Of a stretch of DNA of 64,000 nucleotides, positions 22,983-43,663 are shown piece after piece. Under the pieces are notes generated by a model, which worked only from the letters and a program-made list of their open reading frames with translations, was not told the DNA's origin and ran no database searches. Numbering within the stretch: position 1 is the stretch's first letter; each line of letters begins with the position of its first letter. The position numbers were made by a program, and so were the translations under genes. Origin of the DNA: an uncultured virus (IMG/VR IMGVR_UViG_3300037067_011710) (taxonomy: Duplodnaviria; Heunggongvirae; Uroviricota; Caudoviricetes); IMG/VR virus record IMGVR_UViG_3300037067_011710; one strand, 5' to 3'.

Positions 22983-23169
22983 ACTCGTATGCGAGATTTA
23001 CGGCGTGATTTATCACATCACAATTGTTGACCTGCAAGCAGTCATCAACATGAATTTCATGCATCAGTTTTCTCTCGAAATAGGCAAGCGCTTTTCGATT
23101 TTTTTCTATCACCGAATACACAATATGCTTTGTCTGAGAAATAGGTGTTTTTTTCTGTCCTCTGGGCAT
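22945..23169 (-). CDS. Hypothetical protein
   Basis: 74-aa ORF. Confidence 0.5.
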   Translation of the reverse strand: MPRGQKKTPISQTKHIVYSVIEKNRKALAYFERKLMHEIHVDDCLQVNNCDVINHAVNLAYEYDRPKTRRRDDV

Positions 23170-23199
23170 GCTATAAATATATATAAACCTATATTAAAT

Positions 23200-25239
23200 T
23201 CATAATAAATTTTCGTATTCTGATACCTTTTTTACGGTATCTTGCTGATTACCTATCAACTTCTCCCTAATCTGCATTTTTTTGCGAGAATACGGGACAA
23301 TAAACATCCCCTGATCCGACTTTCGCGTCTCCTCTTTTATATGAGCCTCGATCATCATCAGTGATCTTACCAGTGGATAACCTTGAGGTATCTTTTTATT
23401 CTCATAGCACATCCGGCGCAACTGCACATCAGTCTCAACACAGTCAGAGTGCAAGAGAAGTATGTTGTCGGCAAACATCTTGTTTACCCGAAACACTGAG
23501 GAATGCTCATCATACATAGCCCCCTCAAAAATTCGTATGCCGCATTTCTGCAATTCCTTCTTTATGTTCGACTTTCCCTTCTTTGCCATGGCTTCGTTGC
23601 AAAATATTTTCCTTACTGTGACAAAATGTTCCTGCGATTCCAGTTGAACAATTGCTTTCTCCCTGATTTCCTCTGCCAACAACCGCGGAATCGGATACGG
23701 CTGAAAAATTTCGTTATAGACCTTCAGCTTACGTTTGGCATGAGACCATAAATAGCATCCACCATACACGCCCCCGGTTTCTTCCAACCACAGAACGATG
23801 TATACGCTGACATTTTGAGGTTGAATCTTATCAAACTCGGTTTTCTCTTTATTAAAACTGGAAACATGAACCAGCGGATTGTAATATTCAATAATTGGTT
23901 TCGGGCCTACCAACTTTTTAAACAATCCTGATATAGCATCAGCCCTGTCTTTTTTCCCATATGGGAATCTGGCACATTGAGATAGTGTAGGTTTATTCCA
24001 CGACCCCCGCAAAAATTTAACCCGTCCAAATTCTGCCCATGCTGCCCATGGCCTAAACCTCTCTTCCTTCTGCTCTTTAACTGGATCAGCCTTTGCACTA
24101 AAGCCCTTGAATATCTGAAGAAGATATTCTGACCCCCATTTTCCTGTAGCCTTTGATTCTTCCCATTCTATTTCTACATCCCGTCCGTCTGTCTCTGCAG
24201 TCTGGCGCATTATGTTTTCAGCTTGCCCTGGGGTTTTCTGGAAAGCCTCTATGTCGGTTACATAGAATATCCCATCATATATCCCTCCTTTAGCTCCGGC
24301 CGTTTCACACGGATCATTTTTCTTTTCCTCATCCTTTTCAGTTTCTGCAAGATCCCAATATCGAGATTGTTTCAATTCTGGTGGAATACTATCGACAATC
24401 TCTATCCATGAAGGATCAAATAAATTTCCAGCTTCAGTAATAAGCCAGTTTCCTTTTCCTATTCGTTCCCTAGTTACCCGGTCAGTTCCCATTACCTTTG
24501 CTTTATATTCTTCCCGGTTGGGCATCAGTTCGTTGGTATCAAGAGGAGCATCGATATAGGTTACGCTTGTCGGTGGTCTTCTATCCTCATCTCTTGCATC
24601 AGGAGATACCCATTCTATTTCATCGGTATTCCTGTCCCTTAAAAAATATCGTAGTTTTCCGCTTCTTTCGGGTATAGCATATCCTGTTTCGGGGTCCCAC
24701 CACCATTGAAAAAACTCCGCACACCAGGTATCAGCATCAGCGTTTCCTGTACAAAATGTAAATGGTTTTATTCTACATTCACCATAATTTCTATTCCTGG
24801 TTTGTAAATAAAAAAACTGACTTTTAGTAAACTGTGGAAGTTCATCAAATACTTCACATGTCCAAGCCAATCCTTGGTGATGAAATTTATCCGATTCATT
24901 ATTTAAATGTCCTATTTTTATATAAGCATTTGAAGGAAACGTCCATTCGGTTTTTCCCCTTACACCGTACCCATTGATTGCGGGATAAATATCTTGAGTA
25001 ATATCCCACAACCCACCCCCACCAACAATATCGTTATATTGTCTCCTAAAAATTACTGCGGTATAATCTTTGATATGAGCGTATCGACAAGCTGCAAGAG
25101 TAGAAACAACACTTTTCCCTCCCCCTCCTGGTCCTCCCATAAATGTAATATCGGCAGATGAAAGCAGTGCTTGGGTCTGCGGTCCGGGTTGTGGTCCAAT
25201 TATAGGCCTTCCATCTCCGGAATATCCTACAGGTTTCAA
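23200..25239 (-). CDS. terL: Terminase large subunit
   Basis: PQPGPQT Q-motif, GGPGGGGKS Walker A, VFDELPQF Walker B, RYWDLAET nuclease motif. Confidence 0.92.
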   Translation of the reverse strand: MKPVGYSGDGRPIIGPQPGPQTQALLSSADITFMGGPGGGGKSVVSTLAACRYAHIKDYTAVIFRRQYNDIVGGGGLWDITQDIYPAINGYGVRGKTEWTFPSNAYIKIGHLNNESDKFHHQGLAWTCEVFDELPQFTKSQFFYLQTRNRNYGECRIKPFTFCTGNADADTWCAEFFQWWWDPETGYAIPERSGKLRYFLRDRNTDEIEWVSPDARDEDRRPPTSVTYIDAPLDTNELMPNREEYKAKVMGTDRVTRERIGKGNWLITEAGNLFDPSWIEIVDSIPPELKQSRYWDLAETEKDEEKKNDPCETAGAKGGIYDGIFYVTDIEAFQKTPGQAENIMRQTAETDGRDVEIEWEESKATGKWGSEYLLQIFKGFSAKADPVKEQKEERFRPWAAWAEFGRVKFLRGSWNKPTLSQCARFPYGKKDRADAISGLFKKLVGPKPIIEYYNPLVHVSSFNKEKTEFDKIQPQNVSVYIVLWLEETGGVYGGCYLWSHAKRKLKVYNEIFQPYPIPRLLAEEIREKAIVQLESQEHFVTVRKIFCNEAMAKKGKSNIKKELQKCGIRIFEGAMYDEHSSVFRVNKMFADNILLLHSDCVETDVQLRRMCYENKKIPQGYPLVRSLMMIEAHIKEETRKSDQGMFIVPYSRKKMQIREKLIGNQQDTVKKVSEYENLL

Positions 25240-25838
25240 TCTTGATTCCTGCCATTATCAGGTATGCATAAAAGTGGAATAATAACAGTATTACCTCCTC
25301 CACTCCCACCCTCGGTAATCTTATGATGTTCTGCCAGCAATCGTATCATGGCTTCCTTTGACCACAACTCGTATTCGTACACGTTCTCTATCAGCTTATT
25401 GGTATTTCCATCCTCATCTTTTCCGCCAATGTCAGTAACCCGCTGAGTGTGCTTTATTTTTTTAATCGCCCGACGCCCTGGTCCCATTTCAAAAATATTC
25501 TTCAGAGCAATCCCGCCACCTTCATCTTTTACAAATAAATTGGCAGGATCAGAAAAGGCTATCAATGCTGCCTCTTCCAGAACATTATCAGCAGTTTTAT
25601 TATATCTTTTTAATGCAACATCGACTTTTAGCGCTAAAAAATCTTTTGCCTTTTGAGTTTTTAACAGGTTGTATCCACTACGTTGAGCATTGGATGGACG
25701 ATAACCAGCATCTATAAAAGCCTTTTTTATATCATTACCATTAGAAATATATAAACAAAGAGCTTTTTCTTCTTTAACAGAAAGATTATCTTTTTTTTCA
25801 AATCTATTTACTGCGATTTTTTTCATACCTGACCTCAT
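25236..25838 (-). CDS. terS: Terminase small subunit
   Basis: AFIDAGY, ADNVLEEAALIAFSD, KEAMIRLLAEH; directly upstream of terL. Likely start is 25826 (GAGG SD). Confidence 0.85.
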   Translation of the reverse strand: MRSGMKKIAVNRFEKKDNLSVKEEKALCLYISNGNDIKKAFIDAGYRPSNAQRSGYNLLKTQKAKDFLALKVDVALKRYNKTADNVLEEAALIAFSDPANLFVKDEGGGIALKNIFEMGPGRRAIKKIKHTQRVTDIGGKDEDGNTNKLIENVYEYELWSKEAMIRLLAEHHKITEGGSGGGNTVIIPLLCIPDNGRNQD

Positions 25839-25904
25839 AACGTACTATGCATGCTGACGTTTTGCTTCAAAATGTGCGGAGCGAACAGCATGCGACTGTT
25901 GTAC
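25835..25904 (-). repeat. attC-like site 1
   Basis: TCATAAC..GCATGCTG...CAGCATGC..GTTGTAC. Confidence 0.75.
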
Positions 25905-26050
25905 GAAGTTCGCCCCGCTTCCTTAGTGTTCCCGTGGCGGCATTCCGCGCACAGGACGTGCGCAATCTTAAAAGCAATGGCCTGCTCCGCAGTGCCCACC
26001 GCGAATAGTATTTGTGGTAGTTATGATCCATCTCACGATTTTAGTAAACA

Positions 26051-26908
26051 TTACACCCATCCTTTCGATAAGGTTCCGTTTGCATATACAACCCCGTACA
26101 TATTTCTTGCCGGAGCAAAAATTTTATATAACCCTTTTATCCCGTCCATAAACGATGCTGATAAAGTTTTTTCACACATAAAGCATGATCGCTTCAAAAG
26201 TAGTTTAGCTTTAACGCCGGGAATTATGTTTTTTAATTCAACAAAAGACTGGCACCCACCGTAAAATGGTGATGGCAATTTAATGTCAAATGTGTTTTCG
26301 AAAGAAACGAAGCAATCTTTGCCGTGTTGAATTTCGGATAATTTTATTTCATCAAAACCCATTCCGTCATAATGACGAATGCAGTCCGAAATATCGGAAC
26401 GAGTATACAAATATGGTTTTACTATGTTTAAATTTATCCGCACTTTTTCTTTGGGTAACGAAGCATAAAAAGACTGCCGATCATATTTAGATTTGGTTTT
26501 TCTTATTTCGTCTGCTATCTTTTCATCGTGAGACTGTACTGATAAATTTATTCCGTCGATCAAGGAAATCAATTCTAAAAACAACGCCCTGTTGTCAAAG
26601 CATTTTTTAGGCACCGCAGTTGTTACAAACAATTTCAACTTAGTTTTGTTTTTTAATTCCTTGATGCACGAAACAAGTTCTTCAAGAAATAGGCATGGCT
26701 CCCCTCCAAGAAAAAGAACATCGTCGTATCCGTTGCAATGTTCGACTATTGTTTTTACAATTTCCGGTACATTAGGAACTGCTGCACCAACCCCGTGGAA
26801 TCGAGTGTCAATACAGTGGGCACATTTATTATCACAAGAACTTGTAAAGTGTACATCGAATGAATTATACAGGCCATCACAACAGTTCTTTTTGAAAGGA
26901 TTTTGCAT
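26051..26908 (-). CDS. Radical SAM protein (cassette 1)
   Basis: CDNKCAHC, LGGEPCL. Start reassigned to MQNPFKK because the ORF-track N-terminus lies in the neighbouring att site. Confidence 0.85.
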   Translation of the reverse strand: MQNPFKKNCCDGLYNSFDVHFTSSCDNKCAHCIDTRFHGVGAAVPNVPEIVKTIVEHCNGYDDVLFLGGEPCLFLEELVSCIKELKNKTKLKLFVTTAVPKKCFDNRALFLELISLIDGINLSVQSHDEKIADEIRKTKSKYDRQSFYASLPKEKVRINLNIVKPYLYTRSDISDCIRHYDGMGFDEIKLSEIQHGKDCFVSFENTFDIKLPSPFYGGCQSFVELKNIIPGVKAKLLLKRSCFMCEKTLSASFMDGIKGLYKIFAPARNMYGVVYANGTLSKGWV

Positions 26909-26987
26909 TTTCTTTTCCTCTTCGGCGCACGACGCGCCGTCTTTTTTCTGCCGCCACCTACAATTCAGATTTTGCGGGGCGAATTTT

Positions 26988-27124
26988 GTACAACAGACTC
27001 GCAAATGTGTGCTGGCATCCGGGGGCGTAACCGTACAGCCGATCGGTTCTGTAAGCACCTTCATACAAGGTACACCCTATGCATAAAAGAGACCCCGGAT
27101 GCTTGAACACTTTGCGTGTTAGCG
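26988..27124 (-). repeat. attC-like site 2
   Basis: AAC-AGACT-CGCAAA-T-GTGT..GCATCCGGGG...CCCCGGATGC..ACAC-TTTGCG-T-GTT. Confidence 0.8.
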
Positions 27125-27425
27125 GCTGTTAACCGCGATTCCACAACTCACCTTTCCGGCGCGTGTTTCTGCAACGTACTTTCGAACGGCAGACCGGTAA
27201 CACTGAAAACAAAGCTCCCTGAACTTGGTAAACACAGGCTTCCACGATGGCCTCGGAACACCCTTTGAATCCTTATCGACACACGGTACGATATGGCTGA
27301 ACTCTGAAAAATCACGGATCTGTGTAGAATGGCTGCCGCAACAATCGCAAATTACCTGCTCCATTTTATCTCCTATGTAAGCGCCGGAACTTTAATGCTC
27401 CAGAGCGGTTTATTGACGCTAACGT
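26991..27425. repeat. 435-bp direct repeat, copy 1 (cassette 2)
   Basis: Identical by eye to 28524-28958 (offset 1533); the ORF translations are identical. Confidence 0.95.
27119..27364 (-). CDS. Small Cys-rich protein (cassette 2)
   Basis: CDCC...LCFQC; AGGAG SD. Confidence 0.7.
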   Translation of the reverse strand: MEQVICDCCGSHSTQIRDFSEFSHIVPCVDKDSKGVPRPSWKPVFTKFRELCFQCYRSAVRKYVAETRAGKVSCGIAVNSR

Positions 27426-27590
27426 GCTCAGGCACCAGCCCGAAGTTGACCGACAATCCAATCGTAACAAAACCTCACGATATCAAACTCCTCTTCCGTG
27501 GCACGATGGTTAGTATCTTTAATACTCTGCTGATCATATGCAAATTCCAAATTCTTAACGTCGGGCAATTTTGGGCTGCCTGTGTTATCG
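27417..27590 (-). repeat. attC-like site 3
   Basis: AAC-GTGCT-CAGGC..AGCCCGAAGTTG...CAATTTTGGGCT-GCCTG-T-GTT. Confidence 0.75.
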
Positions 27591-27751
27591 GTCTGTTGCT
27601 CGGCGCTACCCTTGCTCTGCCGGGCATGCTGCAAACCGGCAACAATGTCTGATAACGCAATAACGGCATTTTCAATATTATCGCCCGAACAGCACTCCAT
27701 TAACTAATCGCGAATACTGCCTGCATCTTGTTCAAATGTTGATATTGACAT
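27428..27751 (-). pseudogene. Cassette 3 ORF with in-frame TAG at codon 16
   Basis: AAGGAG SD then MSISTFEQDAGSIRD*LMECCSGD..., continuing in frame into the 90-aa ORF. Confidence 0.55.
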
Positions 27752-27803
27752 AAATGCTCCTTAAATCCACGCCCGGCCTTTAACATGGCCGCCGAGCAAT
27801 TGC

Positions 27804-27931
27804 CGATAACGGCTTGCGGTACGCATGAAGTAAAGTACGACCGCATACCGCTTACCTTTATTTTATGCTACCGCTGTTAGTTTCCGTTTTGCGGCTTTCC
27901 AATTCGGCATGTTGGCCTTGCGTTGTTGGGC
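27804..27931 (-). repeat. attC-like site 4 (composite)
   Basis: AAC-GGCTT-GCGGTA-C-GCATGAAGTAAAG...CTTTATTTTATGC-TACCGC-T-GTT (27876), plus a second core GTTGGGC at 27925. Confidence 0.75.
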
Positions 27932-28118
27932 GTATGTGCCCGTTTTGTACCATAATACCCTGCGGTGGCCTTCTTTGTTCGTAGCGAATAGCCGCCAGCA
28001 TAGCACACTCACGAATCTCTGAGGGTGTAAGCTGCAACGCGTGAATATGATGCTCCAAAGAATCCACCAAAGCCTTAATCAGGGGGTCGTGCATATAACG
28101 ATACTCGATTGACTGCAT
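27858..28118 (-). CDS. Hypothetical protein (cassette 4)
   Basis: RYMHDPLIKALVDSLE...LTPSEIRECAMLA; start set at MQSIEY inside the cassette. Confidence 0.65.
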   Translation of the reverse strand: MQSIEYRYMHDPLIKALVDSLEHHIHALQLTPSEIRECAMLAAIRYEQRRPPQGIMVQNGHIRPTTQGQHAELESRKTETNSGSIK

Positions 28119-28160
28119 TGGCCACCGCCTATAATAAATTGTTTTCAAAACGGGCATTTC

Positions 28161-28298
28161 GCCCAACCTTTACGCAATGGTAGCTGCTCCGCGCCACTTG
28201 CACGGAACTTTAGGCCACCAACAATTTACACCATTACAAAACGGGCTGTCGCTTGCTTTACAGTATCTGCGCGGAGTTGATACCTTGCGTTGTTGGAT
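28161..28298 (-). repeat. attC-like site 5
   Basis: AAC-CTTT-ACGCAA-T-GGTA..CTCCGCGC...GCGCGGAG..TACC-TTGCGT-T-GTT. Confidence 0.8.
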
Positions 28299-28493
28299 GC
28301 TCGTAACCTTTGCCACCTTAATATTGGCGCGGTTTATTCTACGCCAAATGGTACAAAAGCTTGCACAACAAGCGTATCCCGAATAAAATGAATTATCATC
28401 GCAAATAGGCAATAATTTTGCACTATGTGGAGACTTTTGAAATTTACAATGCTCCGAGAACTGTTTAAAACTTACTTGTCTATATCCGCGCAT
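28170..28493 (-). CDS. Cys-rich hypothetical protein (cassette 5)
   Basis: Start MRGYRQ inside the cassette; the ORF-track N-terminus derives from att site 6. Confidence 0.55.
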   Translation of the reverse strand: MRGYRQVSFKQFSEHCKFQKSPHSAKLLPICDDNSFYSGYACCASFCTIWRRINRANIKVAKVTSIQQRKVSTPRRYCKASDSPFCNGVNCWWPKVPCKWRGAATIA

Positions 28494-28523
28494 TATAACT
28501 CCAAAGCAAAGGTTATTGCATTC

Positions 28524-28958
28524 CAACAGACTCGCAAATGTGTGCTGGCATCCGGGGGCGTAACCGTACAGCCGATCGGTTCTGTAAGCACCTTCATACA
28601 AGGTACACCCTATGCATAAAAGAGACCCCGGATGCTTGAACACTTTGCGTGTTAGCGGCTGTTAACCGCGATTCCACAACTCACCTTTCCGGCGCGTGTT
28701 TCTGCAACGTACTTTCGAACGGCAGACCGGTAACACTGAAAACAAAGCTCCCTGAACTTGGTAAACACAGGCTTCCACGATGGCCTCGGAACACCCTTTG
28801 AATCCTTATCGACACACGGTACGATATGGCTGAACTCTGAAAAATCACGGATCTGTGTAGAATGGCTGCCGCAACAATCGCAAATTACCTGCTCCATTTT
28901 ATCTCCTATGTAAGCGCCGGAACTTTAATGCTCCAGAGCGGTTTATTGACGCTAACGT
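28524..28958. repeat. 435-bp direct repeat, copy 2 (cassette 6, includes attC-like site 6 at 28521-28657)
   Basis: Identical by eye to 26991-27425. Confidence 0.95.
28652..28897 (-). CDS. Small Cys-rich protein (cassette 6, identical to cassette 2)
   Basis: Same 81-aa translation as 27119-27364. Confidence 0.7.
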   Translation of the reverse strand: MEQVICDCCGSHSTQIRDFSEFSHIVPCVDKDSKGVPRPSWKPVFTKFRELCFQCYRSAVRKYVAETRAGKVSCGIAVNSR

Positions 28959-29082
28959 CAAGCGAATATGTGAAGTGGCGGCACAGCCCCTCCCGACCGC
29001 GTTAAGCTCTTGTCGGGGCCAACACCACATGTTAACAGCACATAAGTCTGCTTGCCGCCATTTTATATATTCGCTGTTGTGT
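28950..29082 (-). repeat. attC-like site 7
   Basis: AAC-GTCAA-GCGAATATGTGAAGTGGCGGCA...TGCCGCCATTTTATATATTCGC-T-GTT. Confidence 0.8.
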
Positions 29083-29221
29083 GAACGTAAAGAAGGCTTC
29101 CATAGTGTAAGCGCGTGCTCGGTCGTCTTGACTAACTACCATTACGAATACACACTGGACGGTAAGCCCCAGGAACCAAACTAATAACGCGCCTACAACC
29201 ATAAAAGCCTTCTTTATTTCC

Positions 29222-29300
29222 ACACAACGTTTACGCAGTGCGAAGTCGGCGCTTCGCCGATTTGTGCGGAGTCTTCGGAGCCACACTGCGTTTGTTAAGC
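29222..29300 (-). repeat. attC-like site 8
   Basis: AAC-GTTT-ACGCAGTG...CACTGCGT-TT-GTT. Confidence 0.7.
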
Positions 29301-29464
29301 GAAGTTTTGGCGGCTACCGCTGTCTTCAGAGGTTTGCAAACCTCTGAGCCACACCATACTGTTTCTTCGTTTTCAAGTTTAACCTTGTAGGGTAAATCAC
29401 AATCTTCATCGTCAACAGCAACAATGACGCCACTTAATACAACTTTTGTTCCTATCTCAAGCAT
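29231..29464 (-). CDS. Small SH3-like beta protein (cassette 8)
   Basis: GGAGG SD then MLEIGTKVVLSGVIVAVD...PYKVKL. Confidence 0.6.
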   Translation of the reverse strand: MLEIGTKVVLSGVIVAVDDEDCDLPYKVKLENEETVWCGSEVCKPLKTAVAAKTSLNKRSVAPKTPHKSAKRRLRTA

Positions 29465-29500
29465 GTAAACCTCCTCCAATTTAAGAGCCGACAAAATTTT

Positions 29501-29632
29501 GTTTAACGTGTGCCGTGTTATGCTCGTGCCGACCTATACGATGGGCACTCAACTCCATCATTCTCTAAGTCACAACCCTCTGCACGTAAAGCACATGATG
29601 GGCAAAGGCATGGCATAACGCGGCTGTTGTGC
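29501..29632 (-). repeat. attC-like site 9
   Basis: AAC-GTGT-GCCGTGTTATGC...GCATAACGCGGC-T-GTT. Confidence 0.8.
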
Positions 29633-29745
29633 GAAGGTTTTAACTCCTCCGCAGATTTAGCGCATTTGTGGTCAACTGCTAATTCACGAGTCGGAAACTT
29701 CGCCTCGCACTTATCGCACTGATAAAAAGTAAGTATTGTTCTCAA
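29518..29745 (-). CDS. Zn-finger-like small protein (cassette 9)
   Basis: AGGAGG SD, TTG start; YQCDKCEAKF...HKC. Confidence 0.6.
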   Translation of the reverse strand: MRTILTFYQCDKCEAKFPTRELAVDHKCAKSAEELKPSHNSRVMPCLCPSCALRAEGCDLENDGVECPSYRSARA

Positions 29746-29778
29746 ATGCGCCTCCTAAATAAAAGCGTTAAAACTTTT

Positions 29779-29918
29779 GTACAACGGGTTGCTAAACGGG
29801 TTTAGTTTGCCCGTTGGTTGACACAGGGTTTATCGAAACATTTAAGCGTCGTCATCTCGGAAAAGCACTTCTCTCCGTGTTTGAAAAAAGGGCAAATTGA
29901 ACCCTTTGGCTGTTGCAC
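29779..29918 (-). repeat. attC-like site 10
   Basis: AAC-GGGTT-GCTAAA-C-GGGTTTAGTTTGCCC...GGGCAAATTGAACCC-TTTGGC-T-GTT. Confidence 0.85.
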
Positions 29919-30098
29919 GTCTGTGGCCGGTGACTCCACCTGTTGCCGGGCGACAACCTCAGCCCCGATAATAGTATAGTGCGGATACTCAGCGATTAGG
30001 CGCTCCACCTCCGGAAGTTGTACGTCTACCGTTTTAAGCGAAAACTCACTTTGATCGAATCCGCACTGGTGGCACTCTCGTAAAATGATTCTTAACAT
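29802..30098 (-). CDS. Hypothetical protein (cassette 10)
   Basis: 98-aa ORF filling the cassette. Confidence 0.6.
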   Translation of the reverse strand: MLRIILRECHQCGFDQSEFSLKTVDVQLPEVERLIAEYPHYTIIGAEVVARQQVESPATDVQQPKGSICPFFKHGEKCFSEMTTLKCFDKPCVNQRAN

Positions 30099-30151
30099 AT
30101 AAGCTCTTTCGTTTTAGCCCGGCTTACAATCGTGATCTCACCGGGCATTGC

Positions 30152-30240
30152 GTGCAACGGTTTGCCGCACAGCCGAAGCTGGCGACTACAATTTATCTTC
30201 CACAGCCGACTTCGCCAGTTTTGGCTTGCGGCTGTTGGCT
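30152..30240 (-). repeat. attC-like site 11
   Basis: AAC-GGTTT-GCCGCA-C-AGCCGAAGCTGGCGA...TCGCCAGTTTTGGCT-TGCGGC-T-GTT. Confidence 0.85.
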
Positions 30241-30917
30241 GTTGTAAATCGCGCTTCCGAAGTGTTCTCCGGGGCGCTCCTCGCGCACACGATGTGCGCT
30301 CTTAATTGTTTTCCAATGTACTCGGTGTACGCAGGTGGGATTGCCTCAGAAAGCTCTTCCCGAGTAACCCACCAATCTACGCCCATTGCCAATGCTCCAT
30401 CAGCCCGCTTATAGTTATGCCCTGCGCATGTGATGAAATCGTAGTTCTCTAAAGTGTGATAGCACCCCTTCGATGGGGCCATACGACCCCAGTGGTTACA
30501 GGAGCCGGGAAGCATGATCAGGAAATTCGATTCGAATTTACGATGTCGAAGCACCCGCAAATTAAACATTGTTCCGCACAAAGTTATAGCGTTGATTAGT
30601 GGGGCATCGGGGACGTTTTCTATAACGAAAGGGACTCCGGATTGCTTTAGTCTTTCGCGAACAGGAGCCACCAAATCCGGGTAGTCAATTTCTGGATGCA
30701 GATACGCAAGTCTGGAATATTTTTGACATGGCGGGCTGGCGTGTATTGCATCAAAACCTGAAATAGGATACGTTGTTGCGTCTGCCTGGTGAAACTCGAA
30801 CGGGTAATGCGGCTGCGGGTTAATATCCACCCCGACCACGTCGAAGCCAGCGCGGCTATAGCCGACACTGCAACCGCCAGCCCCGCAGAACAAATCAAGT
30901 AATTTTGGTTTTCGCAT
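30186..30917 (-). CDS. DNA (cytosine-5)-methyltransferase, short phage type (cassette 11)
   Basis: LLDLFCGAGG, HASPPCQ, IENV, EAIPPAYTEYIG. Confidence 0.9.
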   Translation of the reverse strand: MRKPKLLDLFCGAGGCSVGYSRAGFDVVGVDINPQPHYPFEFHQADATTYPISGFDAIHASPPCQKYSRLAYLHPEIDYPDLVAPVRERLKQSGVPFVIENVPDAPLINAITLCGTMFNLRVLRHRKFESNFLIMLPGSCNHWGRMAPSKGCYHTLENYDFITCAGHNYKRADGALAMGVDWWVTREELSEAIPPAYTEYIGKQLRAHIVCARSAPENTSEARFTTANSRKPKLAKSAVEDKL

Positions 30918-30996
30918 TTTGTCTTTCGCGGCCCCGGACGGGCCGATTCTGTTTTGCGCCCCGGCTATAATAATTTGCCTTTGCGCGATTTATTGC

Positions 30997-31069
30997 AGCT
31001 AACGTGTTGCGGCATAGGTGACGTTCGGCTTTGCGAATGTGCGAAGCGAACACCTTGCCGCTGTTATAC
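30997..31069 (-). repeat. attC-like site 12
   Basis: AAC-GTGTT-GCGGCA-T-AGGT..GTTCG...CGAAC-ACCT-TGCCGC-T-GTT. Confidence 0.85.
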
Positions 31070-31093
31070 GGCGTTTGAAAAGTTTACCACCAG

Positions 31094-31675
31094 TCATAAT
31101 GCGCCCCACTGTTCCGCCATGGCACGCGCGATTCCGCTGTACGTGATGGAACGAATGAGATGCCGGTTGGGACTCGGCGGCAACTTGTGAATACGACCAA
31201 CTCTTCCGGAGACAATATCGGTTGCCCGGAGAGCCGGAAGCCCACTTAACCACAAACAAGTTGCTTTAGTTTCACCATGACCGAACTGCCACGGATGTAC
31301 TATTTGCGTATACCGTTTACCAATGATCTCAAGTGCCTTTCCGTGAGGAATGGGATTTTCGACGCAGATGCTTTTTGCGTTGGCATTAAGGCACTTCTCA
31401 AAAAAATGGCAAGCCTGCACCATTTTGCACCATCGACCCGGTTGAGTATAAAGCCAACGCACACCGCTGTTGCAGAGATAAGTACAATCCGGGTGTGCAA
31501 TAACTAAATCCCATTCCTCGCATAATAACTCGGAGACATCCCCATGGATATGCGAACCCCGCTCCGAACTGGATGGAAGTAAATCGCAAGATACGGCATG
31601 GTGACCGTACTCAAGAAAGGAATCGCGCACCGTTCCGCTGAACTCACACGCTACGAGAATTTTTTTAGGGCGCAT
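31094..31675 (-). CDS. DNA cytosine methyltransferase-like protein, minimal phage family (cassette 12)
   Basis: ILVACEFSGTVRD, WDLVIAHPDCTYL, ENP, PWQFGH..KATCLWL, RSITYSGIARAMAEQWG. Confidence 0.8.
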   Translation of the reverse strand: MRPKKILVACEFSGTVRDSFLEYGHHAVSCDLLPSSSERGSHIHGDVSELLCEEWDLVIAHPDCTYLCNSGVRWLYTQPGRWCKMVQACHFFEKCLNANAKSICVENPIPHGKALEIIGKRYTQIVHPWQFGHGETKATCLWLSGLPALRATDIVSGRVGRIHKLPPSPNRHLIRSITYSGIARAMAEQWGAL

Positions 31676-31707
31676 TTATAATCTCCAGAAACTTTTCAAA
31701 TGTTGTA

Positions 31708-32061
31708 TAACTACTTCAAAGCCGTAATGGCCCTGCGTATCTCGTTGATCCTGTTAATATCTCTTTCTTTAAGAAAATCCATTTTCTTTCCAATCTTTCT
31801 TAAAAACGAAGCTACTATCGCATGTACGTTATCCNNNNNNNNNNNNNNNNNNNNNNNNNNNNNNNNNNNNNNNNNNNNNNNNNNNNNNNNNNNNNNNNNN
31901 NNNNNNNNNNNNNNNNNNNNNNNNNNNNNNNNNNTAACTACTTCAAAGCCGTAATGGCCCTGCGTATCTCGTTGATCCTGTTAATATCTCTTTCTTTAAG
32001 AAAATCCATTTTCTTTCCAATCTTTCTTAAAAACGAAGCTACTATCGCATGTACGTTATCC
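31708..32061. other. Scaffold gap (100 N) flanked by a 127-bp duplicated overlap
   Basis: 31708-31834 equals 31935-32061. Confidence 0.9.
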
Positions 32062-32183
32062 GAAACAGTTCCTCCAGCAAACCCATAAAGAATATTTATC
32101 TCTGCCTCATATAAATAAACTTTGTGCTGTATTCGGACACGATTTCTAGCCATTTTAATGGCAGTGTGATCAGTTGCAATCAT
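31938..32183 (-). CDS. Hypothetical protein whose TAG stop overlaps the array entry GTT
   Basis: 81-aa ORF; TTGAAG-TAG-TTA. Confidence 0.65.
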   Translation of the reverse strand: MIATDHTAIKMARNRVRIQHKVYLYEAEINILYGFAGGTVSDNVHAIVASFLRKIGKKMDFLKERDINRINEIRRAITALK

Positions 32184-33010
32184 TTTAGAGGATCAGCCTG
32201 TCGTTGCGTTATCCGAAATGCTTCTATCATCGCCCGATATTTCGCCCGGTCTTTGTCACTAGACTTGGGAAGCGAAAAATATTTGTCCGCAATTTTTATT
32301 TGCGCTTCAACCTCTTTGGATGTCATTGGCGACTGCTTGCCATCGTTGAAATCAACGTCAGTGTTCTTCACACGCTCACCACGAGCAATCCGGTCGATAA
32401 CCTCAGTTTGTACACCCCTACGTGCTCTGGCCGTCTTAAGTGCAGCCGTTGGGCTTATAGCTCCTTCTTTTACGGCCTGCCTGATATCGGCAGGAGCTTC
32501 GAGCAGTTTGATAAGGTCCCTGATGTGCTGGTCACTACACCCGAGTCTCTTTGCAATATCTGATTTTTTCATTCCACCATCAACCAATTCTTTTATGGCT
32601 GATGCCTTATCGTCTGCACAAAGAGGCTCTGTGGTGGTACCATAGGAAAGCTGTTTCAGTATCAGATCAGCTCCAGAAAGCTTTTTTCCGCAAACTTTCT
32701 CTTCGAGTTCACAGTACAGCTCTGTTTTTTCCCATGATAAATTGGCAATTGCATAATTTGCAGCCCTGTGACGACGTTCTCCGTCAGTGTACTCGAACCA
32801 TTCCTCATCGTCCGACAGATATCCCCTTACAGGATCGCGCTGCCCCTCAAGGACTAGGCTATTCGCCAGTACCGCTATCGACTCTTGCGGGAATTGAGTC
32901 CGTATGTTCCGTTCCCCTCGGCGTATCTTGGATATCTGTATCCAATACCCGTTTCCGTCCCGGCGCACCCATGTCTTGTCCCTGATCCCCATCGTTTTTA
33001 TCCTTTCCAA
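32180..33010 (-). CDS. ParB-like nuclease/HTH protein
   Basis: GQRDPV...TDGERRHRA; HTH KKSDIAKRLGCSDQHI. Confidence 0.8.
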   Translation of the reverse strand: MERIKTMGIRDKTWVRRDGNGYWIQISKIRRGERNIRTQFPQESIAVLANSLVLEGQRDPVRGYLSDDEEWFEYTDGERRHRAANYAIANLSWEKTELYCELEEKVCGKKLSGADLILKQLSYGTTTEPLCADDKASAIKELVDGGMKKSDIAKRLGCSDQHIRDLIKLLEAPADIRQAVKEGAISPTAALKTARARRGVQTEVIDRIARGERVKNTDVDFNDGKQSPMTSKEVEAQIKIADKYFSLPKSSDKDRAKYRAMIEAFRITQRQADPLK

Positions 33011-33281
33011 AAAGATTCAACTGCTCAACCCCTCCGCGAACTATAACCATTGCCTCGGCAATCATGTTCGCCTTTCGATTGATTACAGCATCGAATTCCA
33101 TCTTTATCTCATTTCCCCACTCTTTCGACGGCACGGTGAGTAAGTCGAGTTTCTTTCCCCACTTCACTTTTATGGTGCCATCCTTCCGAGCAACAACAAG
33201 TATTCGTATACCTCGAAGAGTCTTTTCCAGCTTGTTGAGGTCACGTACTTGCTTATCAATACTATTCATTTGTTCCTCCAC
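32859..33281 (-). CDS. Hypothetical protein
   Basis: 140-aa ORF in operon. Confidence 0.55.
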   Translation of the reverse strand: MEEQMNSIDKQVRDLNKLEKTLRGIRILVVARKDGTIKVKWGKKLDLLTVPSKEWGNEIKMEFDAVINRKANMIAEAMVIVRGGVEQLNLFGKDKNDGDQGQDMGAPGRKRVLDTDIQDTPRGTEHTDSIPARVDSGTGE

Positions 33282-33471
33282 ACTTTATCCGATGCGCCAC
33301 CGTGATGGCATCGTTAATAATGTCGGCGTTCGGAATATCTTTAACTCCATCAACCCGACGTTCCCGAACCATTACTTGCTCAAGATCAGCAAGTTTACCA
33401 CTGTTTGCTCCAGTGATGGTAACCATAACACCAGAGCATTTACCTATTGACATTTCTTTTTTTGCTGGCAT
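33262..33471 (-). CDS. Small DNA-binding-like protein
   Basis: 69-aa ORF. Confidence 0.5.
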   Translation of the reverse strand: MPAKKEMSIGKCSGVMVTITGANSGKLADLEQVMVRERRVDGVKDIPNADIINDAITVAHRIKCGGTNE

Positions 33472-33498
33472 AATTTAAATATAATGAATAATTGTTAT

Positions 33499-35523
33499 CT
33501 ATGCAAATATTTTGTTGTAAATATTTTCAGGTATTTGCCGCTTGTACTTTTTCAAAATATGCTTAGCAAGTACCGCCTGTTTTGCGGTAATCGATTCGCG
33601 CTCCGATAGCTCATGCCCTATCTTGGTATCAATTTTATTATATCCAATGTCGTTCAATGACCGCGCGTAATCTCCGTCCATACCGCTCATATATTTCAAA
33701 GCGGCGTGAATCTCTTGAACTATTTCAGTGGTCAAACCATGCGCCTCTTCGATAATCCGTTCACGCTTCAGCCACCGTGTCGATTTCTCAACTTTTACTT
33801 CCCGATTCTGCACGGTATTCAGTGCCGATTCTACTACCTCCTGTTTTTCAATGAGCGTTTTTGCCATCAGAACATCAATTGAATCCTTGAGTACCAGGTG
33901 ATACACATTTACCGTGTCGGTCTGACCTATTCTATGAAGTCGGTCTTCGACCTGAGAAAGGTCGCCAGGGGTCCAAGGAAGCTCTACAACGTCGATCACC
34001 GATGCCGCGGTAAGGGTTATCCCTACTCCTGCAGCCTTGATCCCCAAAACGGCCACGCGACACTTTGGATCAGTTTGAAACCAGTCCACCAACTGCTGAC
34101 GCTGGTCTATTGGAGTATCACCGTAAATGGCAACTGATTCGTCTTTCCAATGGTTTGCAATCGCCTCGATCATTTCGTGGTGCCATGCCGCGATAACCAC
34201 TTTGTCAGAATTTTCAAGTTGATCTTCAACGAATTTTATCACATAGGGAATCTTTGCGATAGCCGTGGATTTTCGCATTGCAGCCATTTCGTCAAACCTA
34301 AATTTATTTTCAGACTCCAACCGTTCGATTGCCACTTTATAAGCATGTTCATCATCGTCGGCCTTGGCAATCTCAACAGCTACTTCAAGAGCTTCGGTGT
34401 TTGTTCGTTCGATATATTCCTTCTCCCGGTTGATCGCTGCCACTACCGTGCTGTCGGTTTCGTCGTATTCGAGTTCGATAACCTGCCTCACTTTTGGAGG
34501 AAGTTCGGTAAGCACATCTTTTTTCAGTCGGCGTATCATTATCGTCTCACGAAGTTTAACCTGAAGTTCCTCAAGCTTTTCATCTGAAGCGTGGCCTTTA
34601 AAATCCATGCCATACCCGTTACTATGTACGTCGCAGTACCGTTTATGAAAATACCAAAACGTCTTTTGATTCCAGTGCTCCGGATCGAGTAGGGAAATCA
34701 ACGGCCATAACTCTGCTGGTCGATTGCATACTGGCGTCCCGGTCAGCCCGATAATGTGCGCTGCATCCAATTTGTTGTACACCCGCTCGTCGTCTTTTTT
34801 ACTTCCCCCGGCTATCGACCTGAAGCCAAGTGTTCGAGTATTCCTGATAAAATGCATTTCATCCAGAATAACGAGATCCCACTTTATACTCGTTACCCGC
34901 TGGTTGTTTTCCAGCTTCCGCAGCACCTCATAATTGATCACCACAAAATCGTACCCGTCTTCAGGCATCGGAACCCTCTTTGAATCCCCTATAGCCATTT
35001 TAAATGACCTGGTGAGCCACCGTTCAGCTTCGTTGATCCAATTGGTTTTAATCGATGCTGGACACACTACAAGAACGGTTTTAACACTCGGATTGCAGTT
35101 GATAAACCCAAGCGCCTGAATCGTTTTCCCGACGCCCATTTCGTCACAATTGAGAGTATTCACACGCTGCAACGAATACTCGATTCCAGCTTTCTGAAAC
35201 GGATAGTAGTCATATCCTTCAGGATGCGGAAATTCCATTTTAGAACTCGCCGCTCTGCTTGCTGCGAGGCTTACCGTCTGGTGAACTTTTATCCCGGCAA
35301 GTTCTTCACGAAGTTCGGTGGATACTGCATACTCCGCCAGTTTCGCGGCCTTGTCCCGGTCAATGGTATACCACACTTTTTTCGTCGGGCACCATCCAAA
35401 CCCTGCAGTTTTTGGAATCATCCGCTCATCGTATGTGGATTGCAGATAATAAACAGTGTCGTCTTCATGAACCCACCGAGCCCAGTCACCATTTCCATTA
35501 TCGATAGTAGTAAGGAGTTTCAT
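33499..35523 (-). CDS. SNF2-family helicase (HARP/SMARCAL1-like)
   Basis: DEMGVGKT, ILDEMH, LTGTP, GVGITLT, QVEDRLHRIGQ. Confidence 0.92.
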   Translation of the reverse strand: MKLLTTIDNGNGDWARWVHEDDTVYYLQSTYDERMIPKTAGFGWCPTKKVWYTIDRDKAAKLAEYAVSTELREELAGIKVHQTVSLAASRAASSKMEFPHPEGYDYYPFQKAGIEYSLQRVNTLNCDEMGVGKTIQALGFINCNPSVKTVLVVCPASIKTNWINEAERWLTRSFKMAIGDSKRVPMPEDGYDFVVINYEVLRKLENNQRVTSIKWDLVILDEMHFIRNTRTLGFRSIAGGSKKDDERVYNKLDAAHIIGLTGTPVCNRPAELWPLISLLDPEHWNQKTFWYFHKRYCDVHSNGYGMDFKGHASDEKLEELQVKLRETIMIRRLKKDVLTELPPKVRQVIELEYDETDSTVVAAINREKEYIERTNTEALEVAVEIAKADDDEHAYKVAIERLESENKFRFDEMAAMRKSTAIAKIPYVIKFVEDQLENSDKVVIAAWHHEMIEAIANHWKDESVAIYGDTPIDQRQQLVDWFQTDPKCRVAVLGIKAAGVGITLTAASVIDVVELPWTPGDLSQVEDRLHRIGQTDTVNVYHLVLKDSIDVLMAKTLIEKQEVVESALNTVQNREVKVEKSTRWLKRERIIEEAHGLTTEIVQEIHAALKYMSGMDGDYARSLNDIGYNKIDTKIGHELSERESITAKQAVLAKHILKKYKRQIPENIYNKIFA

Positions 35524-35735
35524 TTCGTCGGACTCCCAAAAGATACAGAGTGTTCTCCTTCAGAAATATGGGTGCGACACCACCGAAAATGATCTCGATG
35601 GGCAATATCTAAAATTTGTTCTTCAGTTTCGTTTTCTGCCGAAACAATTAAAACCATCGTTCCCTGCGCCTTATCGTAATCAACTCGTACTTTCATGTTC
35701 ACCACCCTTTCTTGATTAATATCAAATATAATCAA
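35520..35735 (-). CDS. Hypothetical protein
   Basis: 71-aa ORF coupled to the helicase. Confidence 0.5.
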   Translation of the reverse strand: MIIFDINQERVVNMKVRVDYDKAQGTMVLIVSAENETEEQILDIAHRDHFRWCRTHISEGEHSVSFGSPTK

Positions 35736-42972: not shown

Positions 42973-43325
42973 TCACCGGGTTCAAATACCCATTTCACCC
43001 CGTTATGAATAATACAGTGCTCTTCGTTCAGAGGTCCCGACTTGAAAGCAGCAAGAGCCATCCTGCATAACCACGCATGTAGCCCTTCGCCGTTGTGCTT
43101 GGTTCCGGTCCACAATCCGAGCAGCCGGTTACTGGCCGAATCAATTGCGTGTCCGGAAACGTCAATCTCCGGGGTAACAGTTCCACGCCGGTCGAGTTCG
43201 GCTCTGGCAATGTCGGACTTTGAGTGATTTGACTGCACCATCCATTTGAGGTATGGCACAGGTACTCTCGTATAGAGAGTACCGATATGCTTACCGAAAT
43301 CGACAACGAGATTATGGCTATTCAC
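42939..43325 (-). CDS. Hypothetical protein with DUF3820-like N-terminus
   Basis: FGKHIG...VPVPYLKWM. Confidence 0.65.
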   Translation of the reverse strand: MNSHNLVVDFGKHIGTLYTRVPVPYLKWMVQSNHSKSDIARAELDRRGTVTPEIDVSGHAIDSASNRLLGLWTGTKHNGEGLHAWLCRMALAAFKSGPLNEEHCIIHNGVKWVFEPGEWPVLKTVMPK

Positions 43326-43663
43326 CAGCTGCCTCCACTCTGGTCAACATTTTCACTTCCTGCCGCATTGTCAGCTTTAAACTTCGTCACTCCGACTTTG
43401 AATGCCAGCATGTAGTGATAGTGCTTTCCGTCGTTTTCGTCATGGCAGTACTCTCCGGCACACATTACCCTGTCTCCTTTGCGAACCTGCTTGCATGTTT
43501 CAACAGCTCCGCCGATGGCCTTCACGTTCACCCATGTAGTGGGCCAATCGTCGCCTTTGTTCTTGGGAGGCTTTGACACGGCCACCGAAAACCGTGCCAT
43601 CGTTCCCTTGTCATTCATTTCTGGATCTCGCCCTACATTGCCTTCAATACACCAATTGTTCAC
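43322..43663 (-). CDS. ssb: Single-stranded DNA-binding protein
   Basis: MNNWCIEGNVGRDPE...FSVAV...TTWVNV...KGDRV. Confidence 0.88.
   Translation of the reverse strand: MNNWCIEGNVGRDPEMNDKGTMARFSVAVSKPPKNKGDDWPTTWVNVKAIGGAVETCKQVRKGDRVMCAGEYCHDENDGKHYHYMLAFKVGVTKFKADNAAGSENVDQSGGSW

What the first reader, a model, noticed from the sequence alone, without database searches (positions are those of the whole stretch)
26988..31069. Non-canonical att hairpin geometry: 5/1-nt asymmetric bulge and an extra base on the crossover arm
Seen on the plus strand: AAC-N5-[6 bp]-extra C/T-[stem]...[stem]-[6 bp]-T-GTT in sites 2, 4, 6, 10, 11 and 12. Site 5 has N4; sites 3, 7 and 9 keep the 4-5/1 bulge; sites 1 and 8 deviate. 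Most stem mismatches are G:T on the plus strand, so that strand is the one selected to fold. Established: classical attC has a roughly symmetric unpaired spacer, extrahelical bases on the R''/L'' arm, and folds on the bottom strand. Inference: a distinct class of ssDNA recombination site that standard attC models may miss.
Basis: partly seen in the sequence, partly recalled or inferred. Interest (0 to 1): 0.85.

Follow-up and report, generated by a model that had tools for sequence, protein, structure and literature searches.

The report
Unusual integron-like hairpin sites in phage
A phage genome carries a row of small swappable gene cassettes separated by folded-DNA recombination sites that resemble bacterial integron sites but are built differently, and related phages carry the same sites next to a short recombinase that lacks the part thought to define integron integrases.

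Summary
I find 11 hairpin sites in 26992-31065, not 12, and a 12th just outside at 25839-25900. All read AAC...GTT on the plus strand. Most follow AAC-N4/5-[6 bp]-(0-3 extra bases)-stem...stem-[6 bp]-T-GTT.

The geometry is family-wide. In eight arrays (this window and seven other viral contigs), 52 of 98 hits have a 5/1 or 4/1 spacer. Extra bases lie on the AAC-N5 arm 39 times and on the other arm once.

Vibrio attC sites fetched for comparison have a 5/5 spacer and carry their extra bases on the opposite arm.

Cassette ORFs are on the minus strand, so the plus strand is the integron "bottom" strand. G·T pairs outnumber A·C mismatches there.

Every mapped breakpoint falls at the AAC beside the long spacer:
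- a 435-bp duplicated cassette;
- a cassette shared with another phage;
- a 708-bp methyltransferase cassette present or absent within two metagenomes.

The window has no recombinase. In 5 of 5 related loci with enough flanking DNA, the same arrays follow a Xer-like tyrosine recombinase that lacks the IntI-specific insertion.

Verdict: a real, apparently undescribed integron-like variant. Earlier notes of this scan report the same kind on other DNA. IntegronFinder and HattCI could not be run.

The parts
25839..25900 (+). S0: a tail-end hairpin site between the radical-SAM gene and the small terminase gene.
   Evidence: R2 covariance model hit at 25832-25907, E 0.0046. Fold -14.8 kcal/mol on plus against -11.7 on minus. 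Its GTT flank GTTGTAC is complementary to the flank before the S1 AAC.
26051..26911 (-). Radical-SAM gene, the cargo of the cassette bounded by S0 and the S1 AAC.
   Evidence: Pfam Radical_SAM and Fer4_12. Contigs of other runs skip this stretch (table 5).
26992..27120 (+). S1 hairpin site: 5/1 spacer, extra T.
   Evidence: R2 E 1.2e-5
26991..27425 (+). Cassette copy 1 (S1 plus an 81-aa minus-strand ORF), identical to 28524-28958. Both ends lie at site AACs.
   Evidence: blastn 435/435 identical. In runs X1 and X2 it is a separate 435-nt unitig at about twice the depth of its neighbours.
27421..27586 (+). S2 hairpin site: 5/1 spacer, 3-nt bulge.
   Evidence: R2 E 4.8e-5
27808..27878 (+). S3 hairpin site: 5/1 spacer, extra C.
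   Evidence: A contig of run X6 diverges at 27812, just after this AAC.
27925..28167 (+). Cassette body about 96% identical to L101 6068-6310. Homology starts at a GTT and ends exactly at the S4 AAC.
   Evidence: In L101 the left end is the AAC-N5 end of an inverted site.
28165..28294 (+). S4 hairpin site: 4/1 spacer, extra T.
   Evidence: R2 E 9.2e-6
28525..28653 (+). S5 hairpin site, an exact copy of S1.
28954..29078 (+). S6 hairpin site: 4/0 or 5/1 spacer, no extra base, three G·T pairs.
   Evidence: R2 E 0.039
29226..29296 (+). S7 deviant hairpin site (4/2 spacer). The short unit between S6 and S7 has 31-nt complementary ends.
   Evidence: (I1). The R2 model did not find it.
29505..29628 (+). 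S8 hairpin site: 4/1 spacer, extra T only after 12 bp.
   Evidence: R2 E 0.34
29783..29914 (+). S9 hairpin site: 5/1 spacer, extra C.
   Evidence: R2 E 2.8e-8
30156..30236 (+). S10 hairpin site: 5/1 spacer, extra C.
30186..30917 (-). DNA methyltransferase cassette gene. The region is 79-92% identical to a cassette in L095 that carries a different hairpin.
   Evidence: Pfam DNA_methylase, phrog_363, blastn
31001..31065 (+). S11 hairpin site: 5/1 spacer, extra T.
31003..31710 (+). A 708-nt cassette (S11 plus the methyltransferase gene 31094-31675) that is present or absent within populations. The deletion runs from TAAC to TAAC.
   Evidence: Joint 30999->31708 with 4 shared letters, in X1 (depth 11.3) and X2 (depth 40.6). 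Depth over the cassette falls. phrog_757.
31709..31711 (+). Head-of-array crossover AAC with no hairpin (attI-like). On the sense strand the G of the stop codon of the upstream 81-aa ORF is the G of G|TT.
   Evidence: The same position follows the recombinase gene in L168, L169, L170 and L171.

Best explanation
What it is. The sites are recombination sites of an integron-like gene-cassette system carried by phages. They are related in logic to attC sites but form a structurally distinct class.

Cassette layout. On the plus strand each cassette reads: C, 4-5-nt spacer, hairpin, T-GTT, 7-9 nt, a minus-strand ORF, the complementary 7-9 nt, then AA.

What is shown:
- The strand antisense to the ORFs (the plus strand here, the bottom strand in integron terms) is the better folder.
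- The hairpin presents two duplex boxes. The outer box is closed by AAC/GTT. The inner box is 6 bp, consensus GCSGCA/TGCSGC.
- The two boxes are separated by 4-5 unpaired bases on the 5' arm and a single T on the 3' arm.
- Zero to three extra bases usually follow the inner box, on the 5' arm.
- Exchange happens in the AAC next to the long spacer.
- Related phages encode a Xer-like tyrosine recombinase directly upstream of such arrays, in the same direction as the cassettes. It lacks the insertion that marks integron integrases.

What is inferred:
- This recombinase binds the two boxes of the folded strand and cleaves within AAC.
- It exchanges only that strand. The opposite strand has almost no central region, so no homology test of the spacer is possible and no second exchange can occur.
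- The junction is then resolved by replication, as in integrons.

This window. It has the array and a hairpin-less head site, but no recombinase. Its cassettes would have to be moved in trans, by a co-infecting relative or by a host element.
For: Geometry
- Spacers of 5/1 or 4/1 in 52 of 98 hits across eight arrays. The other 79 spacer combinations sit at background level.
- Extra bases on the 5' arm in 39 sites, on the 3' arm in 1, and absent in 17.

Structure rather than sequence
- In a sequence-only alignment of 12 sites, 93.5% of cells pair against 70.8% in shuffles (0 of 500 shuffles reach it).
- 48 cells carry changes on both sides, against 17.2 expected.
- Controls with the partner slid by 1-3 columns give a covariation score of at most 0.098, against 0.62 observed.

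Strand
- G·T 92 against A·C 6 in the stems.
- G·T 47 against A·C 17 outside the zone used for detection.
- The longest ORF lies on the opposite strand in 41 of 47 units.

Crossover
- Both ends of the duplicated 435-bp unit lie at AACs.
- Its unitig has about twice the neighbouring depth in two runs.
- Homology with L101 ends exactly at the S4 AAC. It begins at the AAC-N5 end of an inverted L101 site.
- A 708-nt TAAC-to-TAAC cassette deletion is seen in runs X1 and X2.
- A contig of run X6 diverges at the S3 AAC.
- Unit ends are complementary over 7 nt or more in 32 of 47 adjacent pairs, against 10% of shuffled pairs.

Family and partner
- The R2 model gives 49 hits, all in 12 array-bearing loci. 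It gives 0 in the Vibrio integron, TJE1, L252 and 35 other loci.
- Arrays lie directly downstream of the recombinase in 4 of 4 viral loci of the clade, against 0 of 76 loci with more distant tyrosine recombinases.
- The one metagenome contig with enough downstream DNA also has an array.
- The recombinases lack a stretch of about 40 aa present in Vibrio IntIA, and keep conserved active-site positions, including the HxLRHS and GH...TT.IY motifs.
- They score below every NCBIfam cut-off: XerA 130-163 bits against 220, and IntI 125-137 bits against 265.
Against: - No recombination was observed directly. All mobility evidence is comparative or comes from contigs. X1 and X2 may be the samples the window was assembled from.
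- The window encodes no recombinase. Activity in this phage depends on an unidentified partner.
- The sites used for the statistics were chosen by a scan that requires pairing. The pairing percentages are therefore partly circular. The clustering, the strand specificity and the breakpoints are not.
- Five recombinase-linked loci is a small number.
- S6, S7 and S8, and 17 of 57 sites overall, lack the extra base, so it may not be essential.
- Standard attC detectors were not run, and IntI1 is known to tolerate diverse attC sites (Qi et al. 2023, PMC9892861, section 3.4 read). A host IntI could still be the enzyme.
Confidence: 0.75

Rival explanations
1. This is an ordinary CALIN. The sites are divergent but genuine attC sites, acquired from or serviced by a host integron with a true IntI. 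The 5/1 geometry is then just one taxon-specific attC flavour.
For: - The overall logic is the same: AAC/GTT cores, a crossover at the 3' GTT of the sense strand, a folding bottom strand, variable loops of 48-166 nt, and co-oriented promoterless-looking ORFs.
- CALINs with methyltransferase cassettes are known in virulent phages, and IntI1 recombined 5 of 6 tested phage attC sites (PMC9892861, section 3.4 and tables read).
- The window has no recombinase.
Against: - Spacer symmetry and the arm that carries the extra bases both differ from the Vibrio attC sites.
- The TJE1 CALIN does not show this geometry.
- The neighbour in 5 of 5 informative related loci is a recombinase without the IntI insertion.
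- No IntI was seen next to any array of this type.
- The reciprocal covariance models do not cross-hit.
Confidence: 0.15
2. The hairpins act at the RNA or transcription level, as terminators, processing sites or stabilisers between phage genes. The breakpoints at AAC would then reflect homologous or illegitimate recombination at conserved motifs.
For: The sites lie between co-oriented genes. attC sites themselves are thought to act as weak terminators (statement in PMC9892861).
Against: - The mRNA is the minus-strand sequence, where the G·T pairs become A·C mismatches.
- No T-run follows the stems.
- The deletion and duplication ends share only TAAC or CAAC, too short for homologous recombination.
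- Each unit carries its own complementary ends.
- There is a specific association with a tyrosine recombinase.
Confidence: 0.04
3. The hairpins are ends or targets of another ssDNA-dependent mobile element: IS200/IS605-type, REP/RAYT-type, or XerCD-exploiting elements of the CTX-phage type.
For: These are folded single-strand sites with a fixed short cleavage motif. Xer recombinases act on folded ssDNA in CTX-phage integration (recalled, not checked in a paper here).
Against: - No HUH or Y1 transposase appears in the window or next to the related arrays.
- The sites bound single-gene units in long co-oriented arrays rather than flanking one element.
- The linked enzyme is phage-encoded and sits at the head of the array.
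Confidence: 0.04

Closest known systems
Integron attC sites and cassette arrays (IntI, attI, attC); sedentary chromosomal integrons such as the Vibrio array in phage record MK672802
   Same: - Single-gene cassettes in one orientation.
- An imperfect hairpin closed by AAC/GTT.
- Exchange at the GTT at the 3' end of the site on the sense strand, which is AA|C on the bottom strand.
- The bottom strand folds best.
- The loop is variable.
- Each cassette's start is complementary to the outer box of its own site.
- A hairpin-less head site sits after the recombinase gene.
   Different: - The spacer is 4-5/1 instead of 5/5.
- The inner box is 6 contiguous bp.
- Extra bases lie on the crossover (R'/L') arm instead of the R''/L'' arm.
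- The linked recombinase is about 270-307 aa, lacks the IntI insertion, and is co-directional with the cassettes.
CALINs in phage genomes (Qi et al. 2023, Front Microbiol, PMC9892861)
   Same: An attC-type cluster without an integrase in a phage that shows no lysogeny genes. Methyltransferase cassettes are present.
   Different: Those were found with IntegronFinder or HattCI. TJE1, the one I scanned, shows no 5/1 cluster. The family here is linked to a non-IntI recombinase.
Xer recombinases acting on folded ssDNA (XerCD with the CTX-phage attP hairpin; recalled, not read here)
   Same: A Xer-type enzyme without the I2 helix could use a folded single strand with an imperfect central region. One strand would be exchanged and the junction resolved by replication.
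   Different: That system integrates a whole phage at dif using host enzymes. Here a phage-encoded enzyme sits at the head of an array of many sites bounding gene cassettes.
Mobile stem-loop cassettes (PeSLs) of T4-type phage hyperplastic regions (recalled, not read here)
   Same: Small accessory phage genes flanked by conserved stem-loops and shuffled between genomes.
   Different: As I recall, PeSLs are promoter-bearing elements thought to act through homologous recombination. They have no AAC/GTT core, no strand-asymmetric fold and no dedicated tyrosine recombinase.

Membership tests
Integron attC site | Imperfect inverted repeat with AAC...GTT cores, with exchange at AA|C of the bottom strand (G|TT at the 3' end on the top strand). 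| tested here: met
   Breakpoints of the duplication, of the shared cassette and of the 708-nt deletion lie at the AAC. The canonical position is taken from PMC7439510 (passages) and PMC9892861.
Integron attC site | The bottom strand, antisense to the cassette ORF, is the folded substrate. | tested here: met
   ORFs lie on the opposite strand in 41 of 47 units. G·T against A·C is 92:6 and 47:17 beyond the detection zone. This shows folding preference only, not recombination.
Integron attC site | Roughly symmetric unpaired central spacer between the R and L boxes. | tested here: not met
   5/1 or 4/1 in 52 of 98 hits, and 5/5 in 1. Vibrio sites are 5/5.
Integron attC site | Extrahelical bases on the R''/L'' arm, the 3' arm of the folded bottom strand. 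| tested here: not met
   Extra bases on the 5' arm in 39 sites, on the 3' arm in 1, absent in 17. Vibrio sites carry two extra bases on the 3' arm of the bottom strand.
Integron attC site | Detected by the standard attC models (IntegronFinder CM, HattCI). | not testable with these tools
   The models were not available. Rfam gave no hit. A Vibrio-type attC model built here hit 18 places in L083 and none in the window or in 7 other arrays, but it is taxon-specific.
Integron attC site | Recombined by an IntI integrase. | not testable with these tools
   Needs a recombination assay.
Integron (complete platform) | An integrase of the IntI clade carrying the additional domain (I2 helix). | tested here: not met
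   No recombinase in the window. The recombinases beside related arrays lack the roughly 40-aa insertion of Vibrio IntIA and score 125-137 bits against TIGR02249 (cut-off 265). The role of I2 is taken from the PMC7790495 abstract (listing).
Integron (complete platform) | An attI site next to the integrase gene, with the cassette array starting there. | tested here: inconclusive
   A G|TT preceded by a purine-rich run lies 30-60 nt after the recombinase stop codon in L168, L169, L170 and L171. The equivalent head site in the window is at 31709-31711. The gene is co-directional with the array, not divergent.
CALIN (cluster of attC sites lacking an integrase) | Two or more attC sites called by the standard model, with no integron integrase nearby. 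| tested here: inconclusive
   No integrase in 64 kb. Whether the standard model calls these sites is untested.

The most novel reading that the evidence does not exclude
Phages carry their own integron-like gene-shuffling platform. Its enzyme is a short Xer-type tyrosine recombinase without the I2 helix. Its folded single-strand sites are built as a mirror of attC: the extra bases sit on the cleaved arm, and the central region is almost deleted on the uncleaved arm. If so, hairpin recombination does not require the IntI innovation. Either it arose independently or it represents an earlier stage. Phage accessory and anti-restriction genes would then circulate through a cassette pool that current integron surveys do not see.
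Probability: 0.55. Interest if true: 0.85.

Novelty: new variant of a known kind. Interest (0 to 1): 0.75.

Why it matters
The field holds that integron integrases became able to recombine folded single strands by acquiring the I2 helix (PMC7790495, abstract). It also treats the extrahelical bases on the R''/L'' arm as the features that set strand choice and orientation.

Here is a site family with the opposite asymmetry, tied to a recombinase without that helix. It gives a natural counter-example that can be tested directly in the established suicide-conjugation assay.

It also points to a pool of phage gene cassettes that attC-based surveys may overlook. Methyltransferases, a radical-SAM enzyme and many small unknown genes are among them. 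In two metagenomes one methyltransferase cassette is visibly present or absent within one phage population.

Tried and rejected
- Rfam scan of the window: no family reached its threshold.
- megablast of 23000-35600 against the phage collection: no match.
- The nearest held records, G001 and G002, are fragments of the same phage. They stop at the array and add no variant of it.
- The 80 loci found through the widespread methyltransferase (31094-31675) carry no such arrays.
- Model R1, built from two sites, was too specific. It recovered only S11 beyond its training sites.
- MAFFT alignments of all ten sites, or of S3, S10 and S11 together, were structurally wrong and were dropped.
- Single-protein searches for the recombinases in viral contigs returned only the query loci themselves.
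- The genome-contig scan found only 30-34% identical recombinases (Weeksellaceae, Treponema, Thermoanaerobaculaceae, Mariniphaga) and no 5/1 arrays. The host stays unknown.
- Metagenome contigs L256, L257 and L258 have at most 457 nt after the recombinase and gave no hit, which is uninformative.
- A permissive scan for canonical geometry was noisy. It gave 20 hits on the Vibrio bottom strand against 3-5 in the window, and I do not lean on it.
- A motif search for the head-site flank in the window was at chance level: 12 hits against 11.2 expected.
- Runs X4 and X6 hold only parts of the stretch. Uncovered parts are not evidence of absence.
- Literature: four full-text searches found no description of a phage or Xer-like integron-type system with this site geometry. 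Subscription journals are not covered.

Full report
Context

The window is a phage scaffold, with nearly all genes on the minus strand. Annotated genes:
- large terminase, 23200-25239
- small terminase, 25236-25838
- P22-type portal, 11656-13695
- ParB-like protein, 32180-33010
- SNF2 helicase, 33499-35523
- DnaB, 37356-38687
- ERF, 43710-44699
- SSB, 43322-43663

Pfam scans of 70 ORFs found no tyrosine or serine recombinase. tblastn with 19 recombinases found none either. The two held fragments of the same phage also lack one.

The finding lies between the ParB module and the terminase genes. This stretch holds small minus-strand ORFs, two DNA methyltransferases (30186-30917 and 31094-31675) and a radical-SAM gene (26051-26911).

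The observation

The coordinates are listed under parts.

Their layout is AAC, 4-5 unpaired bases, a 6-bp box, often one extra T or C (three bases in S2), a stem with G·T pairs, a loop, the return stem and box, a single T, then GTT. S7 deviates. S6 and S8 lack the extra base at that position. I could not place its site 1.

The strict scan found 11 plus-strand hits: ten sites plus one pairing between the flanks of neighbouring sites. All lie within 26992-31065. There were none on the minus strand and none elsewhere in the window. The same scan gave 51 scattered hits in 1.14 Mb of other loci.

The family model built later (R2) adds a twelfth, deviant site, S0, at 25839-25900, next to the small terminase gene. 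This makes the radical-SAM gene a cassette too.

A family, not a local oddity

A pattern taken from the sites retrieved 80 viral contigs. Most carry a single match that chance could explain. Several, however, hold arrays with the same geometry:
- L141: 11 sites
- L101: 10 sites
- L130: 8 sites
- L095: 6 sites
- L128: 6 sites
- L161: 4 sites

I then left both spacers free from 0 to 8. In eight arrays, 52 of 98 hits are 5/1 (30) or 4/1 (22). Every other combination occurs 1-4 times. The background is flat over all 81 combinations, with 2018 hits in 4.37 Mb of strand.

Among the 57 hits with spacers of 4-5 and 0-2, the extra bases are distributed as follows:
- on the AAC-N5 arm, 39 sites (1 nt in 26, 2 nt in 2, 3 nt in 11)
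- on the other arm, 1 site
- absent, 17 sites

A MAFFT alignment of 12 short sites from six loci supports the structure by compensatory change:
- 93.5% of cells pair, against 70.8% in shuffles (0 of 500 reach it).
- 48 cells carry changes on both sides, against 17.2 expected.
- 11 of 14 inner-helix pairs carry such changes.
- Slid-partner controls give a covariation score of at most 0.098, against 0.62 observed.

These sites had been chosen by a scan that requires pairing, so the percentages are partly circular.

A covariance model from that alignment (R2) finds 10 of the 11 window sites plus S0, all on the plus strand only. Over 50 further loci it gives 49 hits, all in the 12 array-bearing loci. 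48 of the 49 are on the array's strand. It gives none in the Vibrio integron, in phage TJE1, in L252 or in 35 other loci.

Which strand, and where the exchange happens

In 41 of 47 inter-site units the longest ORF lies on the strand opposite to the AAC-N5 reading. The plus strand here is therefore the bottom strand in integron terms.

Stems hold 909 Watson-Crick pairs, 92 G·T pairs and 6 A·C mismatches. Beyond the 12 bp used for detection, with a strand-neutral extension, the counts are 47 G·T against 17 A·C. Part of this bias is a conserved motif, GAAG opposite TTTT, at a fixed place in the stem.

Five lines of evidence place the exchange at the AAC beside the long spacer:
1. A 435-bp unit (26991-27425 = 28524-28958, 100% identical) begins at the S1/S5 AAC and ends at the S2/S6 AAC. 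In two runs it is a separate unitig at about twice the depth of its neighbours: 37 against 16, and 124 against 70. The duplication is therefore real.
2. Window 27925-28167 is about 96% identical to L101 6068-6310. The identity stops exactly at the AAC of S4 and of the L101 site. It starts at a GTT that in L101 is the AAC-N5 end of an inverted site.
3. In runs X1 and X2 a contig joins 30999 to 31708 with four shared letters (TAAC). This removes S11 plus the second methyltransferase gene, 708 nt in all. Depth over that stretch falls to about half to two thirds.
4. A 9.3-kb contig of run X6 follows the window up to 27812, just past the S3 AAC, then carries 408 other letters and rejoins at 31087.
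5. The 7-9 nt after each GTT are complementary to the 7-9 nt before the next AAC in 32 of 47 units, against 10% of shuffled pairs. This is what a circularised cassette needs to close its own outer box.

X1 and X2 may be the samples the window came from, so they are not independent of it.

Comparison with attC

Fifteen or more attC sites of the Vibrio integron carried by phage record MK672802 were aligned as bottom strands. They read AAC, 5 unpaired bases, 3 bp, 3 bp, 3 bp, and so on. On the return arm they read 3 bp, one extra base, 3 bp, one extra base, 3 bp, 5 unpaired bases, GTT.

The spacer is therefore symmetric, and both extra bases sit on the 3' arm, away from the cleaved AAC. This agrees with the description in PMC7439510 (passages read). 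In the family studied here the spacer is 4-5/1 and the extra bases sit on the cleaved arm.

A model of the Vibrio sites (R3) finds 18 places in that record, including sites not used to build it. It finds nothing in the window, in seven other arrays or in TJE1. That model is taxon-specific. The standard IntegronFinder and HattCI models could not be run.

Phage TJE1 is one of the virulent phages with IntI1-validated attC sites (PMC9892861; section 3.4 and tables read). It shows no cluster of the 5/1 type.

The likely enzyme

In L095 and L128 a tyrosine recombinase gene lies directly upstream of the array, in the same direction as the cassette ORFs.

A profile of its clade retrieved 80 viral loci. 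Four belong to the clade: the two query loci themselves (100%, and L095's at 32% to the L128 query) plus L169 (51%) and L170 (40%). All four have arrays starting within a few hundred bases downstream, on the expected strand. None of the 76 loci with more distant tyrosine recombinases does. The one metagenome contig of the clade with enough downstream DNA (L259, 61% identity) has four sites there.

The proteins are 268-307 aa. Their best NCBIfam matches are XerA (130-163 bits, cut-off 220), XerC and IntI (125-137 bits, cut-off 265). None reaches a cut-off.

Aligned with Vibrio IntIA they lack a stretch of about 40 aa, the region of the IntI-specific domain. They keep conserved active-site positions.

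About 30-60 nt after the stop codon of each recombinase gene lies a G|TT preceded by a purine-rich run. The window has the equivalent head position at 31709-31711, directly after the stop codon of an 81-aa ORF. It is one end of the 708-nt deletion.

Mechanism

Shown: the anatomy, the strand preference, the position of exchange, the cassette logic and the linkage to the recombinase.

Inferred:
- The recombinase binds the outer and inner boxes of the folded bottom strand and cleaves in AAC.
- It exchanges that strand only.
- On the cleaved strand, the C plus the 4-5 spacer bases form a central region of Xer-like length.
- The other strand has one base there. No homology check of the spacer and no second exchange are possible.
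- A replicative resolution, as in integrons, would then be needed.
- The window's phage, having no recombinase, would depend on one supplied in trans. Loose ends in X1, X2 and X6 show other genomes with the same kind of site in the same samples (table 7).

Novelty

Phage CALINs are published (PMC9892861). Four full-text searches found no description of this geometry or of an I2-less recombinase heading such arrays.

Earlier AI notes of this scan report integron-like arrays with short Xer-type recombinases on other DNA. These include phages of Bacteroidota, a jumbo phage and a CPR bacterium. I read them after forming my view, and they are not independent evidence.

I rate the finding as a new variant of a known kind.

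Noticed in passing
window 31835-31934, with 31708-31834 = 31935-32061: A run of 100 N is flanked by an identical 127-bp stretch on both sides. This looks like two contigs overlapping by 127 bases that were scaffolded without merging. The break sits exactly at the head of the array, where the population is polymorphic for the methyltransferase cassette.
   Followed up: partly
window 25839-25900 and 26051-26911: The radical-SAM gene is itself a cassette with its own deviant hairpin site (S0) next to the small terminase start. Contigs of runs X2 and X4 skip about 1.0-1.5 kb here.
   Followed up: partly
all arrays; for example window 27830-27837/27863-27870 and 30178-30185/30219-30226: There is a conserved stem motif at a fixed distance from the inner box: GAAG opposite TTTT (two G·T pairs), or GCTG opposite TTGC. 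It may be a recognition feature rather than drift.
   Followed up: no
cassette starts, for example rc of window 27407-27423, 30987-31003, 28511-28527: On the sense strand, cassettes begin TT + 5-6 variable bases + (C/A)AAT(A/T)A. The same motif follows the G|TT after the recombinase genes in L168-L171. It is a shared 5' element of unknown role.
   Followed up: no
L101 5984-6077 and 4185-4275 (minus strand): Two sites in this otherwise plus-oriented array are inverted. One abuts the cassette shared with the window, which suggests inversion or head-to-head insertion events.
   Followed up: partly
L252 11297-13736 (Thermoanaerobaculaceae MAG): Downstream of a 30%-identical recombinase lie five AAC...GTT hairpins with short (2-3 nt) and long (3-8 nt) spacers, read on the sense strand. 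This may be a bacterial cousin of the same asymmetric architecture.
   Followed up: no
window 29079-29225: The unit between S6 and S7 has no convincing ORF. It consists largely of 31-nt complementary ends (81% complementary), so it is an apparently empty cassette.
   Followed up: no
window 23200-25239: The large terminase ORF is 679 aa, but relatives and Pfam cover only residues 25-444 or so. The C-terminal third is unexplained.
   Followed up: no
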